Positions 1,532 to 19,161 of a DNA stretch of 19,161 nt are shown here, one piece after another. The DNA lies in the IMG/VR virus record IMGVR_UViG_2703718836_000007. One strand, written 5' to 3'. Each line of letters starts with the position of its first letter. Position 1 is the first letter of the stretch. The notes beneath the pieces are model-generated. The model was not told the origin of the DNA and did not search any database. It saw only the letters and a program-made list of their open reading frames with translations. The position numbers and the translations under genes were made by a program. This DNA is from a virus. Lineage: Duplodnaviria > Heunggongvirae > Uroviricota > Caudoviricetes.

Positions 1532-1692
1532 TTACATGTTTTCGATGATCGCTTCACCAAACTCTGAACATTTCAGCAGCTTAGCGCCTTCCATCAGACG
1601 TTCGAAGTCATAAGTTACGGTCTTGGCATTGATTGCGCCTTCCATACCTTTAACAATCAGGTCAGCCGCTTCAGTCCAACCCATATGGCGCA
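1532..1692 (-). pseudogene. icdC: icdC: displaced 3' fragment of isocitrate dehydrogenase left at the prophage attR junction
   Basis: Minus-strand translation reads [54 protein letters not shown], the Icd C-terminus. There is no upstream icd coding sequence, and similarity stops abruptly near 1692. Confidence 0.85.
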
Positions 1693-1885
1693 GCAGTATA
1701 TAAAAACCATGAATTCAAGTCATTGATATTTAACGATAAAAATTATTTTATTGTCTTTTTATTAGCCAAAATAAACTTTATTCAACCGTTTGATTTCATT
1801 GACGTTCGTTTTTATTTTGGGGAAAGGTTTTCTCTACCATTTATATCCAAATTACAAGTCTACATTTTATTAACATCTCAATACA

Positions 1886-1916
1886 TGTGAGGCCTTGCAG
1901 ACCTTTGTGAGACCTT
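1886..1916. promoter_or_regulatory. Two 11-bp direct repeats (tgtgaggcctt / tgtgagacctt) 20 bp apart, with a partial third copy between; candidate recombinase or Xis arm-type binding sites
   Basis: 10 of 11 bp identical, spaced two helical turns apart, in a 700-bp noncoding stretch about 200 bp inside the attR junction. Confidence 0.25.
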
Positions 1917-2396
1917 ATGTGTCTCTGTTTTGTCCCAACTTATGTTAAGAGGCACATAATTAAAAATAAGATAACGATGCCGCCAAGCAGTGCAAAACCT
2001 TGTTTACTCCACGACTGTCTGCCCCATTATCTGCATACATAATTATCCTCCATAACTGAGATAAATGTCGGTTATGAGCGAACAACAGACGTTTAGTTTA
2101 TGATGGCTGTGTCTATACATTAAACATAACATCCATTACCGGCACCGCTTATTAATTGCTATCTGATATTGTCACTAAAAAAATAGGCATTCCCCGATAT
2201 AATAATCACAAAGAAGCTTTTGGTGCTGGCAATCGGTATACCTCATAGTGGACTGCGACTTTCCGGGCACGACAAGGATATATCAATGTATGAGCAGGAA
2301 AATTAGACCGTGGTGCGTCATATGATGACTAAGCACGGATAACAGCTACTTAATTGAAACTATTGATTATATTACAGCCAGTGCCTTATAGGATGG

Positions 2397-3518
2397 TTAG
2401 TCATCAACCGCGACTCCTGCACAATCATGGGCTATTGCCAGCAATTGTTTTTTAATTGCTTTAGCATCTACCGTCATATCTACTGTAGCAAAATGGATCT
2501 TATGTCCCTGAGTGACAACATACTCATTAAGCATATAGCCAACAGCTGGATGAAGTAGAAGACCAGCGGCATTGAGCGAAAGCGGATCCGTCTTGTTCTC
2601 CTGTGTTCTAAGGTAGGTATATAGCTGATAAATATAGCCATTACGTAGTGATTGCTCCCGATGCCAACCCTTTGTCAGAATCGAATTAAATTTGGTATCG
2701 ATAATAATACGCCGCTGGGCAGTCTTGTGTTCCAGAATAATGTCTGACTTCATTGTCGGGAAAATCTCTGCACTACCTGCACTTTGATCGCTCAACGCCC
2801 ATTTCAGCTCTTTCCCTGCAGAGACCTGCCAAGTTGTTTTGGCAAGGTGTACACGATATAAGCCAGCGATACCTTTTTCAAATAGTCTTCTCATCCAGTA
2901 AAGGTTATTTGAGGGCGCAGGTAAAAGATATTGGCCTTGATCTTCGGTCGGCATCAGCAGTTCAAAAGCTAATCGTGCGGCATCGACCATCGGTTTATCT
3001 GCGGCATCATGGCGTCCAAAACGCCACACTGAGGGTAATTCGCGGGGGGCAGGATATCCTCCATTTATCCCCTCACGGCGAAGTGATATTGCCATAAAAT
3101 GGCAATCTGCCGCCAAAGACGGTTTCACTATGATTGAGGCCAGACGTTCTAACGCACAGCGAACATAGCGATTTCGGGGGGTGTTGAGGGTTATGTCTTG
3201 AAAATGGCAGGCAACCTGTCCCCGTTCCAGCAGTTGATGACTGGCAGTATACAGTATGTCAATGCGCCCTCTCACCCGGTTCAGGGCCGCATGACAAGTT
3301 TGGTATCCCATATTTAAATTGCGACGTCGGCGCAGCGTAATCTCATGAAGGAGGATTGTCGCCACCAGGTCGGGGATTTCTGCTGGGTTATCTTCTACTG
3401 CGATCTGATTGCGCCCTAACTGGCGAAACAGATCTGAAGCGTACAGCATCAGCATCCAGATATTTCGCATGGGAATACGTGATGCTGTATGTTGCTCACT
3501 CCCGGTTATTGTCGTCAT
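2397..3518 (-). CDS. McrC-family nuclease subunit of a McrBC-type modification-dependent restriction system
   Basis: 373 aa. N-terminus IPMRNIWMLMLYA resembles E. coli McrC IPVRNIYYMLTYA. C-terminal PD-(D/E)xK-like core SDIIL...RRIIIDTKF...YIYQLYTYL...GLLLHPAVG. Its start overlaps the stop of the upstream McrB-like gene (translational coupling). Confidence 0.8.
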   Translation of the reverse strand: MTTITGSEQHTASRIPMRNIWMLMLYASDLFRQLGRNQIAVEDNPAEIPDLVATILLHEITLRRRRNLNMGYQTCHAALNRVRGRIDILYTASHQLLERGQVACHFQDITLNTPRNRYVRCALERLASIIVKPSLAADCHFMAISLRREGINGGYPAPRELPSVWRFGRHDAADKPMVDAARLAFELLMPTEDQGQYLLPAPSNNLYWMRRLFEKGIAGLYRVHLAKTTWQVSAGKELKWALSDQSAGSAEIFPTMKSDIILEHKTAQRRIIIDTKFNSILTKGWHREQSLRNGYIYQLYTYLRTQENKTDPLSLNAAGLLLHPAVGYMLNEYVVTQGHKIHFATVDMTVDAKAIKKQLLAIAHDCAGVAVDD

Positions 3519-5497
3519 TTTGCTAATAACACTTTTCTGGCTTCATCGACTTTATTTGGAGCATCGAACCAATATTCGGCGAGCAAAGGGCAGATCTCTG
3601 TATCAACGACTTGTTCATACCAAGCCTGGGCATCGTTGATTTTTTGGCCGATAGCTGGGGTGACATAGCTGTGACCGATACAAAACTGTGGTCCTAAGGT
3701 AACATCTTTTGCCAGCATATCGTTTAATACCGTCAGTCGAGATTTGATGAATGCTAACATGTCAAAATCAATTGCGTAATTATAATTTACCCAGTTTCTC
3801 CACGCGTCATTAAAAGCTGGCTTTAGATCGATAAACGCGAAACGACGGCGCAGCGCTAGGTCAAGTAGTGCGAGTGAGCGGTCTGCAATATTCATCGTAC
3901 CGATGATATATAGATTCTCAGGAATGTATATTTTTTCATCAGCATTTTTAGGATAGGAAAGAGATAATGCCTCAGTCGGCGTGCGTTTATCTGCTTCCAT
4001 CAACGTGAGTGTTTCACCGAAGATTTGCGCCGGATTGCCACGATTAATCTCTTCAATTATCACCACATATTTCGAGGTAGGATTATTGACTGCAGTTTTG
4101 ATTGCATTTACAAAAGGTCCATCAATTAGCGTCAATTGCCCTTCTTTACCTGGACGCCAGCCTCGAATAAAGTCTTCGTAAGAGAGGTTCGGGTGAAATT
4201 GCACCGCGCTAATACGCTCAGGTGCTTTTTCTCCCATCAAGCAGTACGCCAGACGTCGCGCTAACCAAGTTTTTCCAGTTCCGGGTGGTCCTTGTAATAT
4301 CAGGTTTTTCTTGTCGATCAGGCGCTGAAGTGTGAGTTGGATCTTAGCCTCTTCCAAGAAACAGCCATCCTGCACCAGATGACTGATGTCATAAGGAACG
4401 TGGGTGAGTTTTGGCAACAGCGCACTCTCTTCGACAGTTTCCTCAGTTATCGTCTGGGATTCGTTTTTCTCAAAATTCAGGTATTCATAATTTCCGGACT
4501 CGAGGGACTTTAACTCATCATCATTGCATAGTTTCTGTAGATAAAAGTAGATTGAGCTTGTAACAGTTTTGCTCTCAGGATGCTCTACCTTGAATACGTC
4601 CAAGTAGTTTTCTTCCAACTCCGAAGCAGTGAAATAAGGGCCATTTTTTTTCAGGCATAACGCCTTAATTTTATTCAGTAAAGAGGCTTTCCACGTTCTA
4701 TTTGCCACCTCATCTTTAGACTGGCTAAGATCTGTATTCCACGCTGATAAGGAAAGTTCTGGGAAAGAATGAACCGGATAGTTTGGTTGGGTAAAGACCT
4801 CGTTCAGCGCCCGCATAAGACTCAGGTAACTTTGTCCACTACAGCGACCTTTTGCCCCGTTTTTAATGATCTTAATGTTTAACACTGTCTGAATGTAATA
4901 CTGCGACTGGCTATCTAAAGTGGGGTAGAACCAAGGACGGGTCCAGTACAACCCCATGGTGAGATTCCAACCGACATTCATTACTGTAGAAGCGATGTCA
5001 TATGCGGCAGTGAAGTCTGCAGAGTTAGTATTCTGGTTATCCGCAAAGATCATTGCCTGTGAGAACATTTCCCACAAGCATTCAATGTCATTAGGGTCGC
5101 GTGACTTTTCATAACCAAAGAACCAAGATTTTTGGTTATTCAACAGAGGGATTCCGGCAAAGGAGTCAGGAATCGGTTCGTTCACGCCCAACAAATTCGC
5201 TAGCTTGGCAGCAATAATTTTGCGATTGCTGTCGGTCAAGTTACGATTGAACAAGCCCATAGTAGTAAACGGACAAATGTCTTTTAAGGGAAAGATCTCT
5301 CCCATAATAGATTTGTCCTGCAGATGGGACATTCCTTCCACACCCGAGGCAATTAGATGAATACCTTTGACTAATTCATCTCTACGATTTCGCCAAGTCA
5401 GTAACGCGTTGGCAAAAGCCTCATAAAAACTAGCCCAAGCAAACTTGCCATCATGTTCTGCTGTATCCACGGGAACTCCATTATACTTGTTGAGCAA
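3515..5497 (-). CDS. McrB-family AAA+ GTPase with a long (~390 aa) non-canonical N-terminal domain
   Basis: 660 aa. The C-terminal ~270 aa align with E. coli McrB: LILQGPPGTGKTWLARRLAYCLMGEKAP, VVIIEEINRGNPAQIFGETLTLME, YIPENLYIIGTMNIADRSLALLDLALRRRF, CIGHSY, PLLAEYWFD. The N-terminal 390 aa (W/Y-rich) do not resemble the ~160-aa McrB DNA-binding domain. Confidence 0.85.
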   Translation of the reverse strand: MLNKYNGVPVDTAEHDGKFAWASFYEAFANALLTWRNRRDELVKGIHLIASGVEGMSHLQDKSIMGEIFPLKDICPFTTMGLFNRNLTDSNRKIIAAKLANLLGVNEPIPDSFAGIPLLNNQKSWFFGYEKSRDPNDIECLWEMFSQAMIFADNQNTNSADFTAAYDIASTVMNVGWNLTMGLYWTRPWFYPTLDSQSQYYIQTVLNIKIIKNGAKGRCSGQSYLSLMRALNEVFTQPNYPVHSFPELSLSAWNTDLSQSKDEVANRTWKASLLNKIKALCLKKNGPYFTASELEENYLDVFKVEHPESKTVTSSIYFYLQKLCNDDELKSLESGNYEYLNFEKNESQTITEETVEESALLPKLTHVPYDISHLVQDGCFLEEAKIQLTLQRLIDKKNLILQGPPGTGKTWLARRLAYCLMGEKAPERISAVQFHPNLSYEDFIRGWRPGKEGQLTLIDGPFVNAIKTAVNNPTSKYVVIIEEINRGNPAQIFGETLTLMEADKRTPTEALSLSYPKNADEKIYIPENLYIIGTMNIADRSLALLDLALRRRFAFIDLKPAFNDAWRNWVNYNYAIDFDMLAFIKSRLTVLNDMLAKDVTLGPQFCIGHSYVTPAIGQKINDAQAWYEQVVDTEICPLLAEYWFDAPNKVDEARKVLLAK

Positions 5498-5830: not shown

Positions 5831-6415
5831 TTATTCCATAACAGGGATTGCAGGCCACTCAATATCAGGTGCAGTTGATGTATCAACACGATTCAGCAAC
5901 ACCCGATACTTCTTCCAGGCTTCAAGCAACGAGGTTTCTTCCTCCGTTGCGATTTCCAGATCTGCAGCATCCTGAAGCGGGGCAATATGCTCACTGGCTA
6001 CCTGCATCAGGCTGTTTTTTGTTTCTTCCGCCTCCCGGATCCGGAACAGTTTTTCTGCTTCCGTATCCTTCACCCAGGCTGTGCCGTTCCACTTCTGAAA
6101 CTCCCCTTCCGGGGATAACCAGGTGATATTTTCCGGTAGAGGTCCGAGTTCAGAAATAAATAACGAGTCGCCGGAAGCCACGTCATAGACGGTTTTTCCC
6201 CGATGATCTTCAACGAGATGCCACGATGCCTCATCACTGTTGAAAACAGCCACGAAGCCTACCGGAATATCTGGCGGTGCAATATAGGTACTGTTTGCTG
6301 GCAGACCTGTATGAGGCGGAATATATGCGTCACCTTCACCAATAAATTCATTAGTTCCGGCCAGCAGATTATAAATTTTTATGGTCCGTGGTTGTTCACT
6401 CATTCTGAATGCCAT
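5831..6415 (-). CDS. tfa: Tail fiber assembly protein Tfa (lambda Tfa-like)
   Basis: 194 aa, [31 protein letters not shown]...[11 protein letters not shown], near-identical to lambda Tfa as I recall it. Start overlaps the stf stop. Confidence 0.9.
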
Positions 6416-11297: not shown

Positions 11298-11597
11298 TTA
11301 TGGTAACACTCGACTCCACTTATCATCCAGCCACGGCTGGAATTTTACATGTGCCGTTTCTCTGGCGAGGATTGCTCGCGCTCTGTTGAGTATCTGGGGA
11401 TATTCTTGCTCGATAGAAGTAAAGCGGCCGGCTTCGCGGTGCTCCGCAACCTGAAGTAGTGGAGTAACGTTCTGGCAGGCAGTTAACATCACATCACCTG
11501 CTCGCCATAACCAAGCACGTGCACAAAGTTTGTTATCAGTGAATTGTTTTGTGATTGGGTATTGTTGAACTGCTAGAACGAGAACGCCAGCATCCAT
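11298..11597 (-). CDS. Hypothetical protein, 99 aa
   Basis: ORF with a moderate RBS. Sits where DLP12-type prophages carry ybcL/ybcM. No recognisable motif; could be a gene fragment. Confidence 0.35.
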   Translation of the reverse strand: MDAGVLVLAVQQYPITKQFTDNKLCARAWLWRAGDVMLTACQNVTPLLQVAEHREAGRFTSIEQEYPQILNRARAILARETAHVKFQPWLDDKWSRVLP

Positions 11598-11708
11598 TGG
11601 CAGTCCCTATAGTAAAACCATAGCTCAGGACGCTTCGTTCAGGATAGATAATTTTATTGTACTTACCTAACTTTCTTACTATAGCACGGTTGAAAAAGTG
11701 ATTATTAC

Positions 11709-13235
11709 TCAAAAATAAACCTCACCATCAACCATATATTTGAGAGTACTTATCGCCTGCTGGGCGGATATTGTTTTCATTAAAGGATAGTGTTTAAAAA
11801 CAATGCCATTCATAAAATAGATATCACAGGTTTTATTATCTGTATTGATTATGATTTTTTCGAATGTTTTATAGGCAAGTGTACGACATAGCTCTCGCCC
11901 ATTTTTACTGGTTAAGTCAATAGCATGAAAATCACCAAGTGAACTCACCGCTTTACTCTTCAAAGTTTTTAATGATACAGAAGCCCTTCGTAATTCCTTA
12001 TCTAATACTCTGATTTTTTCTGCTATAGCGGTAACTTCAGGCGCAACAGATAATGCAGCAATTAAATTATTAATTTTCATCTGGAGCTCAATAATTTTCA
12101 ACTCTAAAGTTTCATTAGCATCTTTCTTGTTTTCAACTGGTTGGATTTTACTACAATTAAAAAGCAACTCATTAATGATATTATAATCAACCAAATCTCT
12201 CTTTATTGATGGCCTGTCACATCGATGCAGTCTTCTCATCGGACAAACATAATAGCCATGCAAACTTCCAGATACCGCATGAACAATCATGGTATTACCA
12301 CAAGCCTCGCACTTCATAACTGTTCGAAGTAGATTTATCAACATAGGATTTTTGCTACTATTGCTAATACCAAAAGGTGCCAACCGAATTTCCTGCACAG
12401 CGTAAAACAAATCATCTGATATGACTCTGGGATAATAGCCAGCGATTTCACTTATTCCTTTACCTCTTGCACGATATGAAGGTACGCATATACCTATCAG
12501 AGCTTTATTCGCTAATAATTTTTCAATTACAGAAGGTCCCCATGCACTTTCTTTTCCTGAGAAATTCTTTACAGCATGATCATTTAAATACTTGGCTATT
12601 GCATTCAATGAGCGCCTTTCCATCCTGAGTTTAAAAATTAGCTCAATAGTTTTCACCCTGTCGGGGTCTGGAACAAAAGCCGTTCTTTTGTCATCCAATG
12701 AGAGCCATCTCGGACAAGACGCCGTCATAATCGTGCCTGACTCCAGTGCATCCTGCCGTTTTTTCTTCCATGATAATTTAACCCGACTTGACTTTATCTC
12801 GCTTTCTTCATTTGCCCTTTGTGCTATAAGTATGGCTTTTATTAATGAATATGGCTCATTCAATGAGTCAATATTATAGACTGTATTATCGCAAAGAGTT
12901 ATAACATCAATACCGTGATTCAAAATCAATTTCAGACGCTCAATCGCCTCACCGACTTTTTCTCTTGAAAGTCTGTCCAGACTTTCAACTAACAATGTAG
13001 TCCCTGGCAATATATAACCATGTTCTATAGCATCTAAAAATTCCGAAAAAGCTCCTGATTGTGCATGCTTTCCATTGAATGCGCTTAACCCCAAATCTTC
13101 ATACGTTACGGTATCAAGGTAATAATCACTATTTACCTTTAGCCATTCAGTAATAAGCCTTCTCTGGCGGTTTAATGAATCACCAGACATCTGACTTGGT
13201 GATGAAAATCGCATATATGCTATGGCTTTTTTCAT
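11709..13235 (-). CDS. ybcK: Large serine recombinase (YbcK-like, resolvase/invertase N-terminal catalytic domain)
   Basis: 508 aa. N-terminal AIAYMRFSSPSQ serine-recombinase catalytic motif. Low GC. Downstream of emrE, as in the DLP12 emrE-ybcK arrangement I recall. Confidence 0.75.
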   Translation of the reverse strand: MKKAIAYMRFSSPSQMSGDSLNRQRRLITEWLKVNSDYYLDTVTYEDLGLSAFNGKHAQSGAFSEFLDAIEHGYILPGTTLLVESLDRLSREKVGEAIERLKLILNHGIDVITLCDNTVYNIDSLNEPYSLIKAILIAQRANEESEIKSSRVKLSWKKKRQDALESGTIMTASCPRWLSLDDKRTAFVPDPDRVKTIELIFKLRMERRSLNAIAKYLNDHAVKNFSGKESAWGPSVIEKLLANKALIGICVPSYRARGKGISEIAGYYPRVISDDLFYAVQEIRLAPFGISNSSKNPMLINLLRTVMKCEACGNTMIVHAVSGSLHGYYVCPMRRLHRCDRPSIKRDLVDYNIINELLFNCSKIQPVENKKDANETLELKIIELQMKINNLIAALSVAPEVTAIAEKIRVLDKELRRASVSLKTLKSKAVSSLGDFHAIDLTSKNGRELCRTLAYKTFEKIIINTDNKTCDIYFMNGIVFKHYPLMKTISAQQAISTLKYMVDGEVYF

Positions 13236-13427
13236 GGTGACACCTGCTAAAGTATGCTTTTATAAACCTTAGTGGTGAGATATGATTTTTGTTTAATTTT
13301 TATTTAAAAAGACAATTAAGGTCACATTATCTTGAATATACAACAATAATCGTATTGCAATTTTCTTACACCATAATCTTGAAAGCACAAAAGAATGAAT
13401 AAAAACTAAAGACATTAACAAAAAGCA

Positions 13428-13462
13428 TAAAACGAGGCCCATATAAATATACGAGCCTCCAT
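13428..13462 (-). terminator. Candidate rho-independent terminator downstream of emrE
   Basis: Imperfect hairpin (gaggc...atat / atat...gcctc) followed by a U-rich tract on the minus strand. Confidence 0.3.
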
Positions 13463-13490
13463 ATTTTAGTCGTTTAAAAACAAATTATTT

Positions 13491-13823
13491 TTAATGTGGT
13501 GTGCTTCGTGACAATAAATTAATAACCAACACACCGGCACAAATCAACATCATGCCTATAATGGCTGGCAGGTCCAACCGTTGGCCGAAAAATCCCCATG
13601 ATAGTAAGCTAATCAGGACAATACCGACTCCTGACCAGATAGCATAAGCAATCCCTGTAGGAATATAAGCCAGCGTCTGAGCTAATAACCAGAATGATGC
13701 ACAATAACAAATAATTGTACCAACAGATGGCCATAACCGTGTAAAACCTTCTGAAAACTTCATTAAGGTTGTACCAATGACCTCTGCAAGTATTGCACCA
13801 CCAAGATAAATATAAGGATTCAT
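13491..13823 (-). CDS. emrE: Small multidrug resistance (SMR) efflux transporter EmrE
   Basis: MNPYIYLGGAILAEVIGTTLMKFSEGFTRLWPSVGTIICYCASFWLLAQTLAYIPTGIAYAIWSGVGIVLISLLSWGFFGQRLDLPAIIGMMLICAGVLVINLLSRSTPH, 110 aa from the internal Met, which has an aggaaag RBS. The longer ORF-track start is an artefact. Confidence 0.9.
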   Translation of the reverse strand: MNPYIYLGGAILAEVIGTTLMKFSEGFTRLWPSVGTIICYCASFWLLAQTLAYIPTGIAYAIWSGVGIVLISLLSWGFFGQRLDLPAIIGMMLICAGVLVINLLSRSTPH

Positions 13824-13890
13824 AGCATATTCTTTCCTGTTCAAACTGGAGAGAATTGTACTACAGTTTGAACTCAACTCACCTGTTTCA

Positions 13891-14193
13891 TCATTGTGTA
13901 CCCATTGATGTTCTTTTATATACCCTCAATACCCGTTTCATCGCGGCACTCTGGCGACACTCCTTAAAAATCAAATTCGTGCTCACCTTTCCTTCCCATT
14001 CTTCTCTGGTAGCGAACCGATAATACACCGTTCGCCAGACCTTACCATCAACGACTAGGATTCCTGCCCGCGCCATTTTAGCCGCAGCCTGATTTATGCT
14101 GGTTACCGTTGCGCCTGTTACCGCGGCAACGTCCTGCGCACAGAATTTCTTATGAGTCCCCAGGTAATGAATAATTGACTCTTTGCCCGTCAT
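13891..14193 (-). CDS. ren: Ren protein (lambda Ren-like, Rex exclusion escape)
   Basis: MTGKESIIHYLGTHKKFCAQDVAAVTGATVTSINQAAAKMARAGILVVDGKVWRTVYYRFATREEWEGK... matches lambda Ren. Start overlaps the P stop. Confidence 0.85.
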   Translation of the reverse strand: MTGKESIIHYLGTHKKFCAQDVAAVTGATVTSINQAAAKMARAGILVVDGKVWRTVYYRFATREEWEGKVSTNLIFKECRQSAAMKRVLRVYKRTSMGTQ

Positions 14194-15929: not shown

Positions 15930-16994
15930 ATGAGTCAGGTTGGTAATCATTCATTCGAATTTCCGGCATCGCAAGGTGTACAGGGTGGTACTGTTACACT
16001 CTTCCTTACCATACCAGGAAGATCGCTGGCTCGTTTCCTCGCTTCAGATAATTACGGCCATACACTGGAACGCTCTCAGCGAGAAATTAATCCAAATCGA
16101 GTACGAAAATTTTTAAATTATCTCACTAACGCAGACTCAAGAAATGAGCCTTTTATCATTCCCCCTCTCGTAGGTAACTGTGATTCGAATATAGAATTTG
16201 TACCGTTTGGCAACACAAATGTTGGTATAGCCAGAATTCCCCTCGACGCCGAAATAAAACTTTTTGATGGTCAACATCGTGCAGCTGGCATTGAGATATT
16301 TTGCCGAAGTTCCCCATCAACGCTCATGGTTCCCATGATGCTTACAATGAATCTGCCGCTAAAAACCCGGCAGCAGTTCTTTTCGGACATAAATAACAAC
16401 GTTTCTAAGCCATCAGCGACCATCAATATGGCGTATAACGGCCGGGATGATATTGCTCAGGGAATGATATCCTTCCTGACCCAACATACTGTATTTGCCG
16501 ATATAACCGATTTTGAACACAACGTAGTGCCATTAAAAAGTAATATGTGGGTGAGTTTCAAGGCACTCACTGATGCAACGTCAAAGTTCGCTAGGAACGG
16601 CAATCAACAACTTGAAATGGGATATATAGAATCTGTCTGGGAGGCATGGATTACACTAACTCAGATTGACTCAATCCGACATGGTGTACACCACGCTACG
16701 TACAAGCGCGATTATATTCAGTTCCATGGAGTAATGATTAACGCTTTCGGTTTTGCGGTTCAACAGATGATGGTTAATCATTCCATCGCAGAAATAACTT
16801 CTATGATCGAAAAACTATGTGCAACTACCAGCTCTGCAGAAAGAGAGGATTTTTTTCTGATGGATAACTGGGCGGGGATCTGCACGAAAGCCAGCCAGGA
16901 AAAACTATCTGTTATTGCCAATGTGGCAGCGCAGAAAGCAGCAGCAAACAGACTGATACAAGCTTTTACCAAAGGAAGTCTGGAAACAACTTAA
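15930..16994 (+). CDS. DGQHR-domain protein (DndB-like, ParB/Srx-fold), orphan
   Basis: 354 aa carrying the diagnostic motif in IKLFDGQHRAAGIEIF. Strong SD (caggagg) 7 nt before the ATG. AT-rich relative to the neighbouring lambda genes. No dndCDE, dpd or ssp partner genes in the window. Confidence 0.75.
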   Translation: MSQVGNHSFEFPASQGVQGGTVTLFLTIPGRSLARFLASDNYGHTLERSQREINPNRVRKFLNYLTNADSRNEPFIIPPLVGNCDSNIEFVPFGNTNVGIARIPLDAEIKLFDGQHRAAGIEIFCRSSPSTLMVPMMLTMNLPLKTRQQFFSDINNNVSKPSATINMAYNGRDDIAQGMISFLTQHTVFADITDFEHNVVPLKSNMWVSFKALTDATSKFARNGNQQLEMGYIESVWEAWITLTQIDSIRHGVHHATYKRDYIQFHGVMINAFGFAVQQMMVNHSIAEITSMIEKLCATTSSAEREDFFLMDNWAGICTKASQEKLSVIANVAAQKAAANRLIQAFTKGSLETT

Positions 16995-17792: not shown

Positions 17793-18029
17793 ATGTCTCG
17801 ACTAATCACTTTACAGGACTGGGCTAAAGAAGAATTTGGGGACTTAGCACCAAGTGAGCGAGTTCTGAAAAAATACGCGCAAGGGAAAATGATGGCCCCA
17901 CCCGCTATAAAAGTTGGTCGCTACTGGATGATTGACCGAAATTCCCGTTTTGTAGGAACGCTTGCAGAACCGCAACTCCCAATAAACGCAAACCCAAAAC
18001 TCCAACGGATAATCGCTGATGGCTGCTAG
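17793..18029 (+). CDS. xis: Excisionase (Xis), lambda-type
   Basis: 78 aa, MSRLITLQDWAKEE...VLKKYAQGKMMAPPAIKVGRYWMIDRNSRFVG. Strong SD (aagaggagg). Stop overlaps the int start. Position and orientation are typical of xis-int. Confidence 0.75.
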   Translation: MSRLITLQDWAKEEFGDLAPSERVLKKYAQGKMMAPPAIKVGRYWMIDRNSRFVGTLAEPQLPINANPKLQRIIADGC

Positions 18030-19161
18030 ACCCCGATCTCACAAAATCTCTATACCCAATTTATATTGCAAATTAGATAAGCGAACCGGAAAGGTATATT
18101 GGCAATACAAACATCCACTATCCGGTCGTTTTCATAGCTTAGGAACTGATGAGAATGAAGCAAAACAAGTTGCTACTGAAGCAAATACCATTATTGCTGA
18201 ACAACGTACCAGACAAATATTAAGCGTCAATGAGCGTCTGGAAAGAATGAAAGGCAGGCGCTCAGACATTACGGTGACAGAATGGCTTGATAAATATATT
18301 TCTATCCAGGAGGACAGGCTGCAACATAATGAACTAAGACCCAACTCCTATCGGCAAAAAGGCAAACCCATTCGTCTTTTCCGTGAGCATTGTGGAATGC
18401 AACACCTCAAGGATATTACCGCACTTGATATTGCCGAAATAATTGATGCTGTAAAGGCTGAAGGTCATAACAGGATGGCGCAAGTCGTGAGAATGGTGTT
18501 GATCGACGTCTTCAAAGAAGCACAACACGCAGGACATGTTCCGCCAGGATTTAACCCTGCGCAGGCAACAAAACAACCGCGAAATCGAGTAAACCGCCAA
18601 AGATTGTCACTGCTCGAATGGCAGGCAATATTTGAAAGCGTAAGCAGACGGCAGCCCTATTTAAAATGCGGCATGCTACTTGCTCTTGTTACTGGACAAC
18701 GTTTAGGCGATATCTGCAATTTGAAATTCTCTGATATATGGGACGACATGTTGCACATTACTCAGGAAAAAACCGGTTCAAAACTTGCTATTCCGCTTAA
18801 CCTGAAATGCGATGCTCTGAATATTACCCTTCGTGAAGTTATATCTCAGTGCAGGGATGCTGTTGTTAGTAAATATCTGGTCCATTACCGTCACACTACC
18901 TCTCAAGCAAACAGAGGAGACCAGGTTTCTGCAAATACTCTGACAACGGCTTTTAAAAAGGCCCGGGAAAAATGTGGCATAAAATGGGAGCAAGGAACTG
19001 CGCCCACATTTCATGAGCAGCGATCTCTCTCAGAACGGTTATATCGGGAACAGGGTCTGGATACGCAAAAGTTGTTAGGCCATAAATCCAGAAAAATGAC
19101 CGACCGATACAATGATGATCGTGGTAAAGACTGGATTATCGTAGATATCAAAACAGCATAG
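18019..19161 (+). CDS. int: Tyrosine site-specific integrase, lambda family, icd-targeting type (e14 / phage 21-like)
   Basis: 380 aa. Catalytic signature LALVTGQRLGD (Arg), TFHEQRSLSERLY (His-x-x-Arg), LLGHKSRKMTDRYNDDRG (His...Tyr). C-terminus resembles lambda Int LLGHKSDTMASQYRDDRGREW. The stop codon ends exactly at 19161. Confidence 0.9.
   Translation: MAARPRSHKISIPNLYCKLDKRTGKVYWQYKHPLSGRFHSLGTDENEAKQVATEANTIIAEQRTRQILSVNERLERMKGRRSDITVTEWLDKYISIQEDRLQHNELRPNSYRQKGKPIRLFREHCGMQHLKDITALDIAEIIDAVKAEGHNRMAQVVRMVLIDVFKEAQHAGHVPPGFNPAQATKQPRNRVNRQRLSLLEWQAIFESVSRRQPYLKCGMLLALVTGQRLGDICNLKFSDIWDDMLHITQEKTGSKLAIPLNLKCDALNITLREVISQCRDAVVSKYLVHYRHTTSQANRGDQVSANTLTTAFKKAREKCGIKWEQGTAPTFHEQRSLSERLYREQGLDTQKLLGHKSRKMTDRYNDDRGKDWIIVDIKTA

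What the first reader, a model, noticed from the sequence alone, without database searches (positions are those of the whole stretch)
2397..5497. McrBC-type restriction module with a long, unrecognised McrB N-terminal domain in the attR-proximal cargo slot
The GTPase core of the 660-aa protein and the whole 373-aa partner align convincingly with E. coli McrB and McrC, and the two genes are translationally coupled. The first ~390 aa of the McrB-like protein are more than twice the length of the canonical McrB reader domain and share no motif with it that I can see. In McrBC systems the N-terminal domain determines which DNA modification is attacked, so this may be a restriction system with a new target specificity. 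It sits between tfa and attR, the slot where e14 of K-12 carries mcrA.
Basis: partly seen in the sequence, partly recalled or inferred. Interest (0 to 1): 0.7.

Follow-up and report, generated by a model that had tools for sequence, protein, structure and literature searches.

The report
McrBC variant with DUF8425–winged-helix reader
A defective E. coli prophage carries a two-gene McrBC-type restriction system whose DNA-recognition end is not the classical one but a catalogued domain of unknown function (DUF8425) followed by a DpnI-like winged helix; this architecture has been noted in the literature but never tested, so it is a good experimental target rather than a new kind of system.

Summary
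Window 3515..5497(-) and 2397..3518(-) encode an McrB-type AAA+ GTPase and an McrC nuclease. The GTPase is 47% identical to EcoKMcrB over 282 aa. McrC passes NCBI's equivalog cut-off. The genes overlap by ATGA and lie between tfa and the e14 right end (attR, ~nt 1698), the slot that holds pinE-mcrA in K-12.

The "long unrecognised N-domain" is two domains plus a linker:

The architecture "NTD-wH-NTPase + McrC" was described bioinformatically in 2024 (PMC11037411) and left uncharacterised.

The genes are intact in 289 E. coli genomes and under purifying selection (17 synonymous vs 4 non-synonymous differences).

Most likely this is a working type IV restriction system whose target is not Dam-methylated GATC. 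The actual target is unknown. I rate it a new member of a known kind, of moderate interest.

The parts
3515..5497 (-). McrB-like gene. Longest ORF is 660 aa from TTG 5497. The likely start is GTG 5470 (651 aa, RefSeq WP_000379040.1 'AAA family ATPase').
4736..5449 (-). DUF8425 domain (Pfam PF28527), residues ~17-254. Mostly helical. Conserved motifs include DICPFT (73-78) and FNR (83-85). Function unknown.
4478..4702 (-). DpnI_C-type winged-helix domain, residues ~266-340. Recognition helix SSIYFYLQ at residues 314-321 (nt 4535-4558).
4367..4477 (-). Acidic, low-confidence (disordered) linker, residues ~341-377.
   Evidence: pLDDT 45-46 over residues 351-370; pI 4.5
3518..4366 (-). McrB-type AAA+ GTPase plus lid (Pfam AAA_5 and McrB_lid), residues 378-660. 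Walker A at nt 4268-4291, Walker B at 4040-4066, NxxD motif (MNIADRS) at 3875-3895, Arg fingers at 3839-3853.
2397..3518 (-). McrC nuclease subunit, 373 aa. PD-(D/E)xK residues D259 and D274-x-K276 (nt 2691-2753).
3515..3518 (-). ATGA stop/start overlap between the two genes (translational-coupling arrangement).
1532..1698 (-). icd' pseudo-3' end and prophage right boundary (attR). Homology to K-12 ends at nt 1698.
5831..6415 (-). Tail-fibre assembly gene (tfa), which bounds the cargo slot on the phage side.

Best explanation
This is a functional type IV (modification-dependent) restriction system of the McrBC family, carried as cargo at the attR end of a defective e14-like prophage.

The large subunit has four parts: DUF8425, a DpnI-like winged helix, a flexible linker, and an McrB AAA+ GTPase with its lid. 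The small subunit is McrC, a PD-(D/E)xK nuclease.

Inferred mechanism, by analogy with EcoKMcrBC:
1. The N-terminal module binds foreign DNA that carries a chemical mark.
2. The GTPase assembles into hexamers and McrC plugs into them.
3. GTP hydrolysis drives DNA translocation.
4. McrC cuts both strands when complexes stall or collide.

Inferred from sequence: the fast-evolving winged helix is a specificity determinant. Its recognition helix has lost DpnI's m6A/GATC-contact residues. The target is therefore not Dam-methylated GATC, which would be lethal in Dam+ E. coli. It is some other mark, for example adenine methylation in another sequence context or a phage hypermodified base.

DUF8425 is the only N-terminal domain in many relatives. 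It is probably the conserved DNA- or target-binding core of this McrB branch.

Shown here: the domain architecture, the catalytic motifs, the gene arrangement, conservation and purifying selection. Inferred only: the DNA target, the role of each N-terminal domain, and GTP-dependent cleavage.
For: - The GTPase core is 47% identical to EcoKMcrB and has Walker A, Walker B, NxxD and Arg-finger motifs.
- McrC passes the NCBIfam equivalog cut-off and its catalytic D...DxK residues are aligned.
- The two genes overlap by ATGA.
- The same gene pair, DUF8425-McrB then McrC, occurs in Enterobacter and in an unrelated MAG, both inside defence-gene neighbourhoods.
- Recognition-helix positions equivalent to DpnI E228/K229/R231/Q232 are S/S/Y/F here, and they vary among close orthologues (DpnI contacts from PMC3424567).
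- The winged helix is the fastest-evolving folded domain. Against P0017 identities are NTD 73%, wH 57%, GTPase 85%.
- DUF8425 is found in 1,948 clusters, and 51 of 55 long members carry AAA_5. The minimal architecture is DUF8425-linker-GTPase.
- The cassette is intact in 289 complete E. coli genomes, and 288 have the same icd'-mcrC-mcrB-tfa arrangement.
- The two E. coli alleles differ by 17 synonymous and 4 non-synonymous changes.
- No DNA methyltransferase is annotated in the window.
Against: - There are no experimental data for this protein or its subclass. The only reported attempt to purify one failed (PMC11037411).
- The winged helix of this particular protein scores below the Pfam cut-off (14.8 vs 23 bits).
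- That winged helix is acidic (pI 5.8, against 9.35 for the DpnI fragment), so it may bind DNA weakly or do something else.
- DUF8425 has no structural or sequence relative of known function and the family is acidic on average (median pI 5.1). Its DNA-binding role is a guess.
- The Walker B motif reads EE instead of DE. This is conserved across the clade.
- No consensus sigma-70 promoter was found on the coding strand upstream of the operon.
- PADLOC has no specific model for it.
Confidence: 0.7

Rival explanations
1. The winged helix reads Dam-type G6mATC as in DpnI. The system would then be a 6mA-dependent McrBC that is kept silent, or tolerated, in Dam+ E. coli.
For: The closest structural relative of the domain is the DpnI winged helix, which binds fully methylated G6mATC. 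Several winged-helix fusion nucleases were shown to be toxic in Dam+ cells (PMC11037411).
Against: The DpnI residues that form the methyl pockets and read GATC (E228, K229, R231, Q232) are S, S, Y, F here. None of 20 family members aligned carries the DpnI motif. According to PMC11037411, only ~10% of winged-helix fusions carry that motif. The cassette is intact and under purifying selection in 289 Dam+ E. coli genomes and in other Dam+ enterobacteria (Dam status is from general knowledge).
Confidence: 0.05
2. DUF8425 is not a DNA reader. It would instead be a regulatory or sensor domain (for example autoinhibition, or sensing of a phage protein or small molecule), with DNA contact coming only from the winged helix and the GTPase ring.
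For: The family is acidic (median pI 5.1). It is better conserved than the winged helix, whereas readers under arms-race pressure usually vary. It has no similarity to any known nucleic-acid-binding fold. It occurs in tandem copies interleaved with TPR repeats, and once with a KAP NTPase.
Against: In many relatives DUF8425 is the only domain N-terminal to the GTPase. In those proteins nothing else could select the target, unlike all characterised McrB homologues. The EcoKMcrB reader domain is not basic either (pI 6.6).
Confidence: 0.2
3. The system is not modification-dependent. It would recognise unmodified DNA sequences or structures, like LlaJI-type McrB relatives, with the host protected by a methyltransferase located elsewhere, for example Dam.
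For: Some winged-helix domains sense unmethylated sites (introduction of PMC11037411, abstract). All enterobacterial hosts of this clade share housekeeping Dam and Dcm (general knowledge).
Against: No methyltransferase lies next to the genes, either here or in the two relatives inspected. The cassette moves on a prophage, independently of any modification gene. No characterised McrBC system with a stand-alone B+C gene pair that I know of is other than modification-dependent (general knowledge).
Confidence: 0.07
4. The cassette is a decaying, non-functional remnant of a cryptic prophage.
For: The prophage is defective and mosaic: it has no head or terminase genes and carries several pseudogenes. 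Some strains carry IS insertions in or beside the cassette.
Against: Both ORFs are full length with all catalytic motifs. They are at least 99% identical in 305 genomes. Differences between the two alleles are 17 synonymous against 4 non-synonymous.
Confidence: 0.08

Closest known systems
EcoKMcrBC (E. coli K-12 mcrB-mcrC)
   Same: AAA+ GTPase core with Walker A/B, NxxD signature and Arg fingers (47% identity over 282 aa). McrC partner with PD-(D/E)xK residues (24% identity, end to end). Gene order B then C, with overlapping stop and start codons.
   Different: The N-terminal 5mC-flipping reader (DUF3578/ADAM, ~160 aa) is replaced by DUF8425 + winged helix + linker (~378 aa), with no detectable similarity. 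Walker B reads EE rather than DE. It lies in a prophage rather than the immigration control region.
'NTD-wH-NTPase + McrC' class of Helbrecht et al. 2024 (PMC11037411)
   Same: [quoted passage not shown]
   Different: The paper names no members that I could match to this protein, and the supplements held no list. Identity of its 'NTD' with DUF8425 is therefore inferred, not shown. The class has not been characterised experimentally.
R.DpnI C-terminal winged-helix domain (Pfam DpnI_C; PDB 4esj/4kyw)
   Different: Residues that read the methyl groups and GATC, EKIRQQLQ, are SSIYFYLQ here. The domain is acidic here (pI 5.8 vs 9.35). It is fused to a GTPase motor rather than directly to a nuclease.
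Thermococcus gammatolerans McrB (YTH-McrB) and other McrB homologues with swapped readers
   Same: The same principle: a conserved GTPase motor with an exchangeable N-terminal modification reader (PMC11037411 introduction; PMC11090510).
   Different: Here it is a winged helix, which in DpnI does not flip bases, plus DUF8425.
EcoKMcrA in e14 of K-12
   Same: A type IV restriction gene in the same cargo slot, between the tail-fibre module and attR/icdC.
   Different: An unrelated single-chain HNH enzyme. There is no sequence similarity between the two prophage ends.

Membership tests
McrBC type IV restriction systems | McrB-type AAA+ GTPase with Walker A, Walker B and the NxxD signature motif | tested here: met
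   GPPGTGKT 403-410, VVIIEEINR 478-486 (EE instead of DE), MNIADRS with N536..D539. E 5.6e-76 to the EcoKMcrB structure.
McrBC type IV restriction systems | Separate McrC subunit with a PD-(D/E)xK nuclease site, encoded immediately downstream | tested here: met
   NCBIfam McrC equivalog 356 bits, cut-off 338. D259 and D274-x-K276 align with the K-12 catalytic residues. ATGA overlap.
McrBC type IV restriction systems | GTP-dependent cleavage of modified DNA | not testable with these tools
   Needs biochemistry or plaque assays.
EcoKMcrB equivalog (NCBIfam NF008457) | Full-length match above the curated cut-off, including the 5mC reader domain | tested here: not met
   262.5 bits against a cut-off of 637. 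Only profile positions 176-452 match. hhalign of DUF8425 vs EcoKMcrB residues 1-170: probability 0.2%.
Pfam PF28527 (DUF8425) | Match to the family model | tested here: met
   Precomputed Pfam hit on the 651-aa RefSeq-start form (P0001, 99.7% identical) and on all close relatives. Family name given. The model is absent from the local Pfam copy, so I did not score it myself.
Pfam PF17726 (DpnI_C winged helix) | Score above the gathering cut-off (23 bits) | tested here: not met
   14.8 bits, E 0.034, over model positions 2-69 of 70 for this protein. Orthologues at 83%, 67% and 49% identity score 26.7, 31.4 and 48.6 bits, so homology is transitive.
Pfam PF17726 (DpnI_C winged helix) | Winged-helix fold closest to DpnI | tested here: met
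DpnI-type G6mATC readers | Recognition-helix residues E228, K229, R231, Q232, Q235, which form the methyl pockets and read GATC | tested here: not met
   The aligned residues are S, S, Y, F, Q. Only Q235 is kept.
HhH-GPD DNA glycosylases (considered for DUF8425) | Significant fold or profile similarity; HhH motif and catalytic Asp | tested here: not met

The most novel reading that the evidence does not exclude
DUF8425 is a modification reader, or other non-self sensor, with a fold that has no solved relative. Together with a re-tuned DpnI-like winged helix, it would direct this E. coli McrBC against a DNA mark that the known E. coli type IV enzymes (McrA, McrBC, Mrr, GmrSD) do not cover. Candidates are adenine methylation outside GATC, Mom-type adenine adducts, 7-deazaguanines or glucosylated hmC. 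That would also assign a function to the ~1,950-cluster DUF8425 branch of the McrB family.
Probability: 0.3. Interest if true: 0.65.

Novelty: new member of a known kind. Interest (0 to 1): 0.4.

Why it matters
McrBC is the textbook modification-dependent restriction system, and what each homologue attacks is set by its N-terminal reader. This one sits in about 5% of complete E. coli genomes (289 of 5,426), in a genetically tractable host. It represents a large McrB branch (DUF8425) whose reader has no known function and no solved structure.

Finding its target would have three uses. It would extend the map of which phage DNA modifications are policed by which enzymes. It would explain why e14-like prophages swap different type IV genes into the same slot. 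It could also yield a new modification-specific reagent.

It does not change the known framework: the architecture has been noted in print and in Pfam.

Tried and rejected
- EcoKMcrB-type reader: rejected (BLASTP; hhalign).
- EVE/PUA/SRA/YTH or other Pfam readers in residues 1-378: no hits even at E<=10, apart from weak DpnI_C.
- Sequence search of a DUF8425 profile against all PDB chains: nothing at E<=10.
- DUF8425 fused to other effectors: essentially not. 51 of 55 long members carry AAA_5. The exceptions are one KAP NTPase fusion and TPR-interleaved tandem copies that still end in AAA_5. Most 'DUF8425-only' hits are truncated or frameshifted gene calls.
- Remnant of the extra ~150-aa N-terminal domain that many relatives have: none upstream of the gene (tblastn). 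That domain itself has no Pfam or PDB match.
- tRNA or known RNA in the 330-bp upstream spacer: none.
- Sequenced phages carrying the cassette: none. Only GTPase-core matches were found.
- Literature searches for WP_000379040, PF28527 and DUF8425 returned nothing.
- The supplements of PMC11037411 held no list of NTD-wH-NTPase members.
Full report
**Source and context**

The window is 100% identical to E. coli NCTC9100. Nucleotides 1-1698 are 99.8% identical to K-12 from ycgX to icdC. The similarity stops exactly at the annotated right end of cryptic prophage e14. From there to the integrase at 18019-19161 lies a defective, mosaic lambdoid prophage. It has xis, a YqaJ-type exonuclease, a DndB/DGQHR protein, replication protein P, ren, emrE, a large serine recombinase, tail-fibre genes and tfa, but no head or terminase genes. 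No DNA methyltransferase is annotated in it.

**Checking the observation**

The two ORFs are present as described.

Residues 378-654 of the 660-aa product match the McrB GTPase by every measure:
- Pfam AAA_5, E 8e-27.
- The C-terminal 60% of NCBI's McrB model, 262 bits.
- The EcoKMcrB cryo-EM/crystal chains, E ~1e-76.
- K-12 McrB, 47% identity over 282 aa.
- Walker A, Walker B (EE rather than DE, as in the whole clade), the NxxD signature and the arginine fingers are all present.

The 373-aa product passes NCBI's curated McrC equivalog cut-off (356 vs 338 bits). It aligns end to end with K-12 McrC, with the catalytic Asp and DxK in register.

The stop of the first gene and the ATG of the second overlap as ATGA. 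In K-12 the two genes overlap by one base.

Two details differ from RefSeq:
- RefSeq starts the large gene at GTG 5470. That start has a GGAG 5 nt upstream and is probably correct.
- RefSeq starts McrC at an internal ATG (3470).

The location claim is right. The cassette lies between tfa (5831-6415) and attR (~1698). K-12 e14 has pinE-mcrA in that slot.

**What the N-terminal 378 residues are**

The local Pfam copy finds nothing there. There is no similarity to the EcoKMcrB reader domain. However, the large protein database carries hits from a newer Pfam release. The 651-aa RefSeq-start form of this protein (P0001, 99.7% identical) and all its relatives have PF28527 and PF28529. The context look-ups name these families DUF8425 and McrB_lid, and give the order DUF8425 - DpnI_C - AAA_5 - McrB_lid.

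AlphaFold2 with a 76-sequence alignment gives a confident model of residues 1-378 (pLDDT 85.5). It has three parts:
- a mostly helical domain, residues ~17-254;
- a winged helix, ~266-340;
- a disordered acidic linker, ~341-377.

**The winged helix**

- This protein scores 14.8 bits on Pfam DpnI_C, below the 23-bit cut-off. Orthologues at 83%, 67% and 49% identity score 26.7, 31.4 and 48.6 bits over the same region.
- The winged helix of one relative hits the DpnI sequence directly (E 3e-7).
- In DpnI the recognition helix EKIRQQLQ (E228, K229, R231, Q232, Q235) forms the pockets for the two N6-methyl groups and reads GATC (PMC3424567). The aligned residues here are SSIYFYLQ.
- None of 20 family members aligned keeps the DpnI motif. 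These positions vary even among enterobacterial orthologues.
- The winged helix is the fastest-evolving folded domain. Against P0017, identities are NTD 73%, wH 57%, GTPase 85%.
- It is acidic (pI 5.8), unlike the DpnI fragment (9.35).

**DUF8425**

- Modelled alone, it is very confident (pLDDT 92.2, pTM 0.90).
- It has no significant neighbour among predicted viral proteins (best E 0.66).
- A family profile finds no PDB sequence even at E<=10.
- HhH-type DNA glycosylases recur among the sub-threshold hits in both structure libraries. Profile comparison with E. coli AlkA and Nth gives no support, so this is only a weak lead.
- A single-sequence HMMER scan of 1.84 billion cluster representatives finds 1,948 clusters at E<=0.001 and 1,343 at E<=1e-10.
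- Of 55 long members, 51 carry AAA_5.
- The commonest minimal architecture is DUF8425, a ~70-aa linker and the GTPase. Others add a ~150-aa N-terminal domain, a winged helix (DpnI_C, Mrr_N or HARE-HTH) or tandem DUF8425 copies.
- McrC follows directly in both relatives inspected. Both sit among other defence genes.

DUF8425 is therefore a conserved hallmark of a large McrB branch. It is not a feature peculiar to this prophage.

**Literature**

Helbrecht et al. 2024 (PMC11037411) surveyed DpnI-like winged-helix fusions. [quoted passage not shown] They made one failed purification attempt and left the class uncharacterised. They also note two points relevant here:
- only ~10% of winged-helix fusions carry the DpnI 6mA/GATC motif;
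- the specificity of the rest is unknown, and conflict with Dam must be avoided by a different specificity or by tight control.

The McrBC census of Bell et al. (PMC11090510) does not discuss this domain. Nothing is indexed under WP_000379040, PF28527 or DUF8425.

**Is it functional?**

- The coding region is at least 99% identical in 305 complete E. coli genomes and full length in 289.
- 288 genomes have the same icd'-mcrC-mcrB-tfa arrangement. Only 17 share the whole 19-kb prophage, so the cassette persists while the rest of the prophage varies.
- The two E. coli alleles differ by 17 synonymous and 4 non-synonymous substitutions across both genes. That indicates strong purifying selection.
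- A few strains have IS insertions in or next to the cassette.

**Most likely mechanism**

By homology, the complex should work as EcoKMcrBC does. The N-terminal module binds marked DNA. GTP-bound hexamers recruit McrC. GTP hydrolysis drives translocation, and McrC cuts when complexes stall. These steps are inferred, not shown.

The host and all close relatives' hosts are Dam+ (general knowledge), and the recognition helix lacks the DpnI contact residues. The target is therefore unlikely to be G6mATC. Which modification is read is open, as is whether DUF8425, the winged helix or both read it.

DUF8425 is the only N-terminal domain in many homologues. I think it binds the target. Its acidity and its lack of any known relative leave a regulatory or sensor role as a serious alternative.

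**Verdict**

The claim of an 'unrecognised' domain needs correcting. The region is a catalogued domain of unknown function plus a known type of reader, in an architecture already pointed out in print but never characterised.

It is a new member of a known kind, with moderate interest as a tractable E. coli entry point to a large uncharacterised McrB branch.

Noticed in passing
window 15930-16994 (+): A stand-alone DndB/DGQHR-domain protein (Pfam DndB, 158 bits) sits in the prophage early region next to the exonuclease gene. No dnd or dpd partner genes are in the window.
   Followed up: no
window 11500-13900 (-): A low-GC stretch (0.32-0.38) holds a 508-aa large serine recombinase (annotated ybcK) and an SMR transporter (emrE), followed by ren and replication protein P. 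This is a DLP12-like block inside an e14-site prophage, so the element is a mosaic.
   Followed up: partly
window 5874-6072 (-): A full-length match to Rfam IS009 (RF02111; 214 bits, gathering score 117) lies entirely inside the tfa coding sequence.
   Followed up: no
window 3470/3518 and 5470/5497: RefSeq start codons differ from the longest ORFs. McrC is annotated from an internal ATG, although homology to K-12 McrC extends upstream of it. The McrB-like gene is annotated from GTG 5470, which has a GGAG 5 nt upstream.
   Followed up: partly
L004 8001-11083 (Enterobacter hormaechei contig JALLPX010000004.1): The 67%-identical orthologous pair is not in a prophage. It lies next to a SymE toxin gene and a ScoMcrA-like SBD-HNH gene, which recalls the K-12 immigration control region (mcrBC-symE-hsd).
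   Followed up: no
relatives P0023-P0038, P0056, P0065 and others, residues ~1-150: Many DUF8425-McrB relatives carry an extra ~150-aa N-terminal domain before DUF8425, with motifs YWFVGA...IAIK...REWYF. It has no local Pfam or PDB match. It is absent from the window protein, and no remnant lies upstream.
   Followed up: partly
P0123, P0218, P0225 (relatives): Rare DUF8425 architectures: two or three tandem copies interleaved with TPR repeats ahead of AAA_5, and one fusion to a KAP-family P-loop NTPase instead of McrB.
   Followed up: partly
window 1699-2396: About 700 bp of AT-rich sequence with no annotated gene lies between attR and the mcrC stop. In strain FORC 064 an ISCro1 (IS66 family) element is inserted here. 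In strain ML35 an IS3 element interrupts the McrB-like gene.
   Followed up: no
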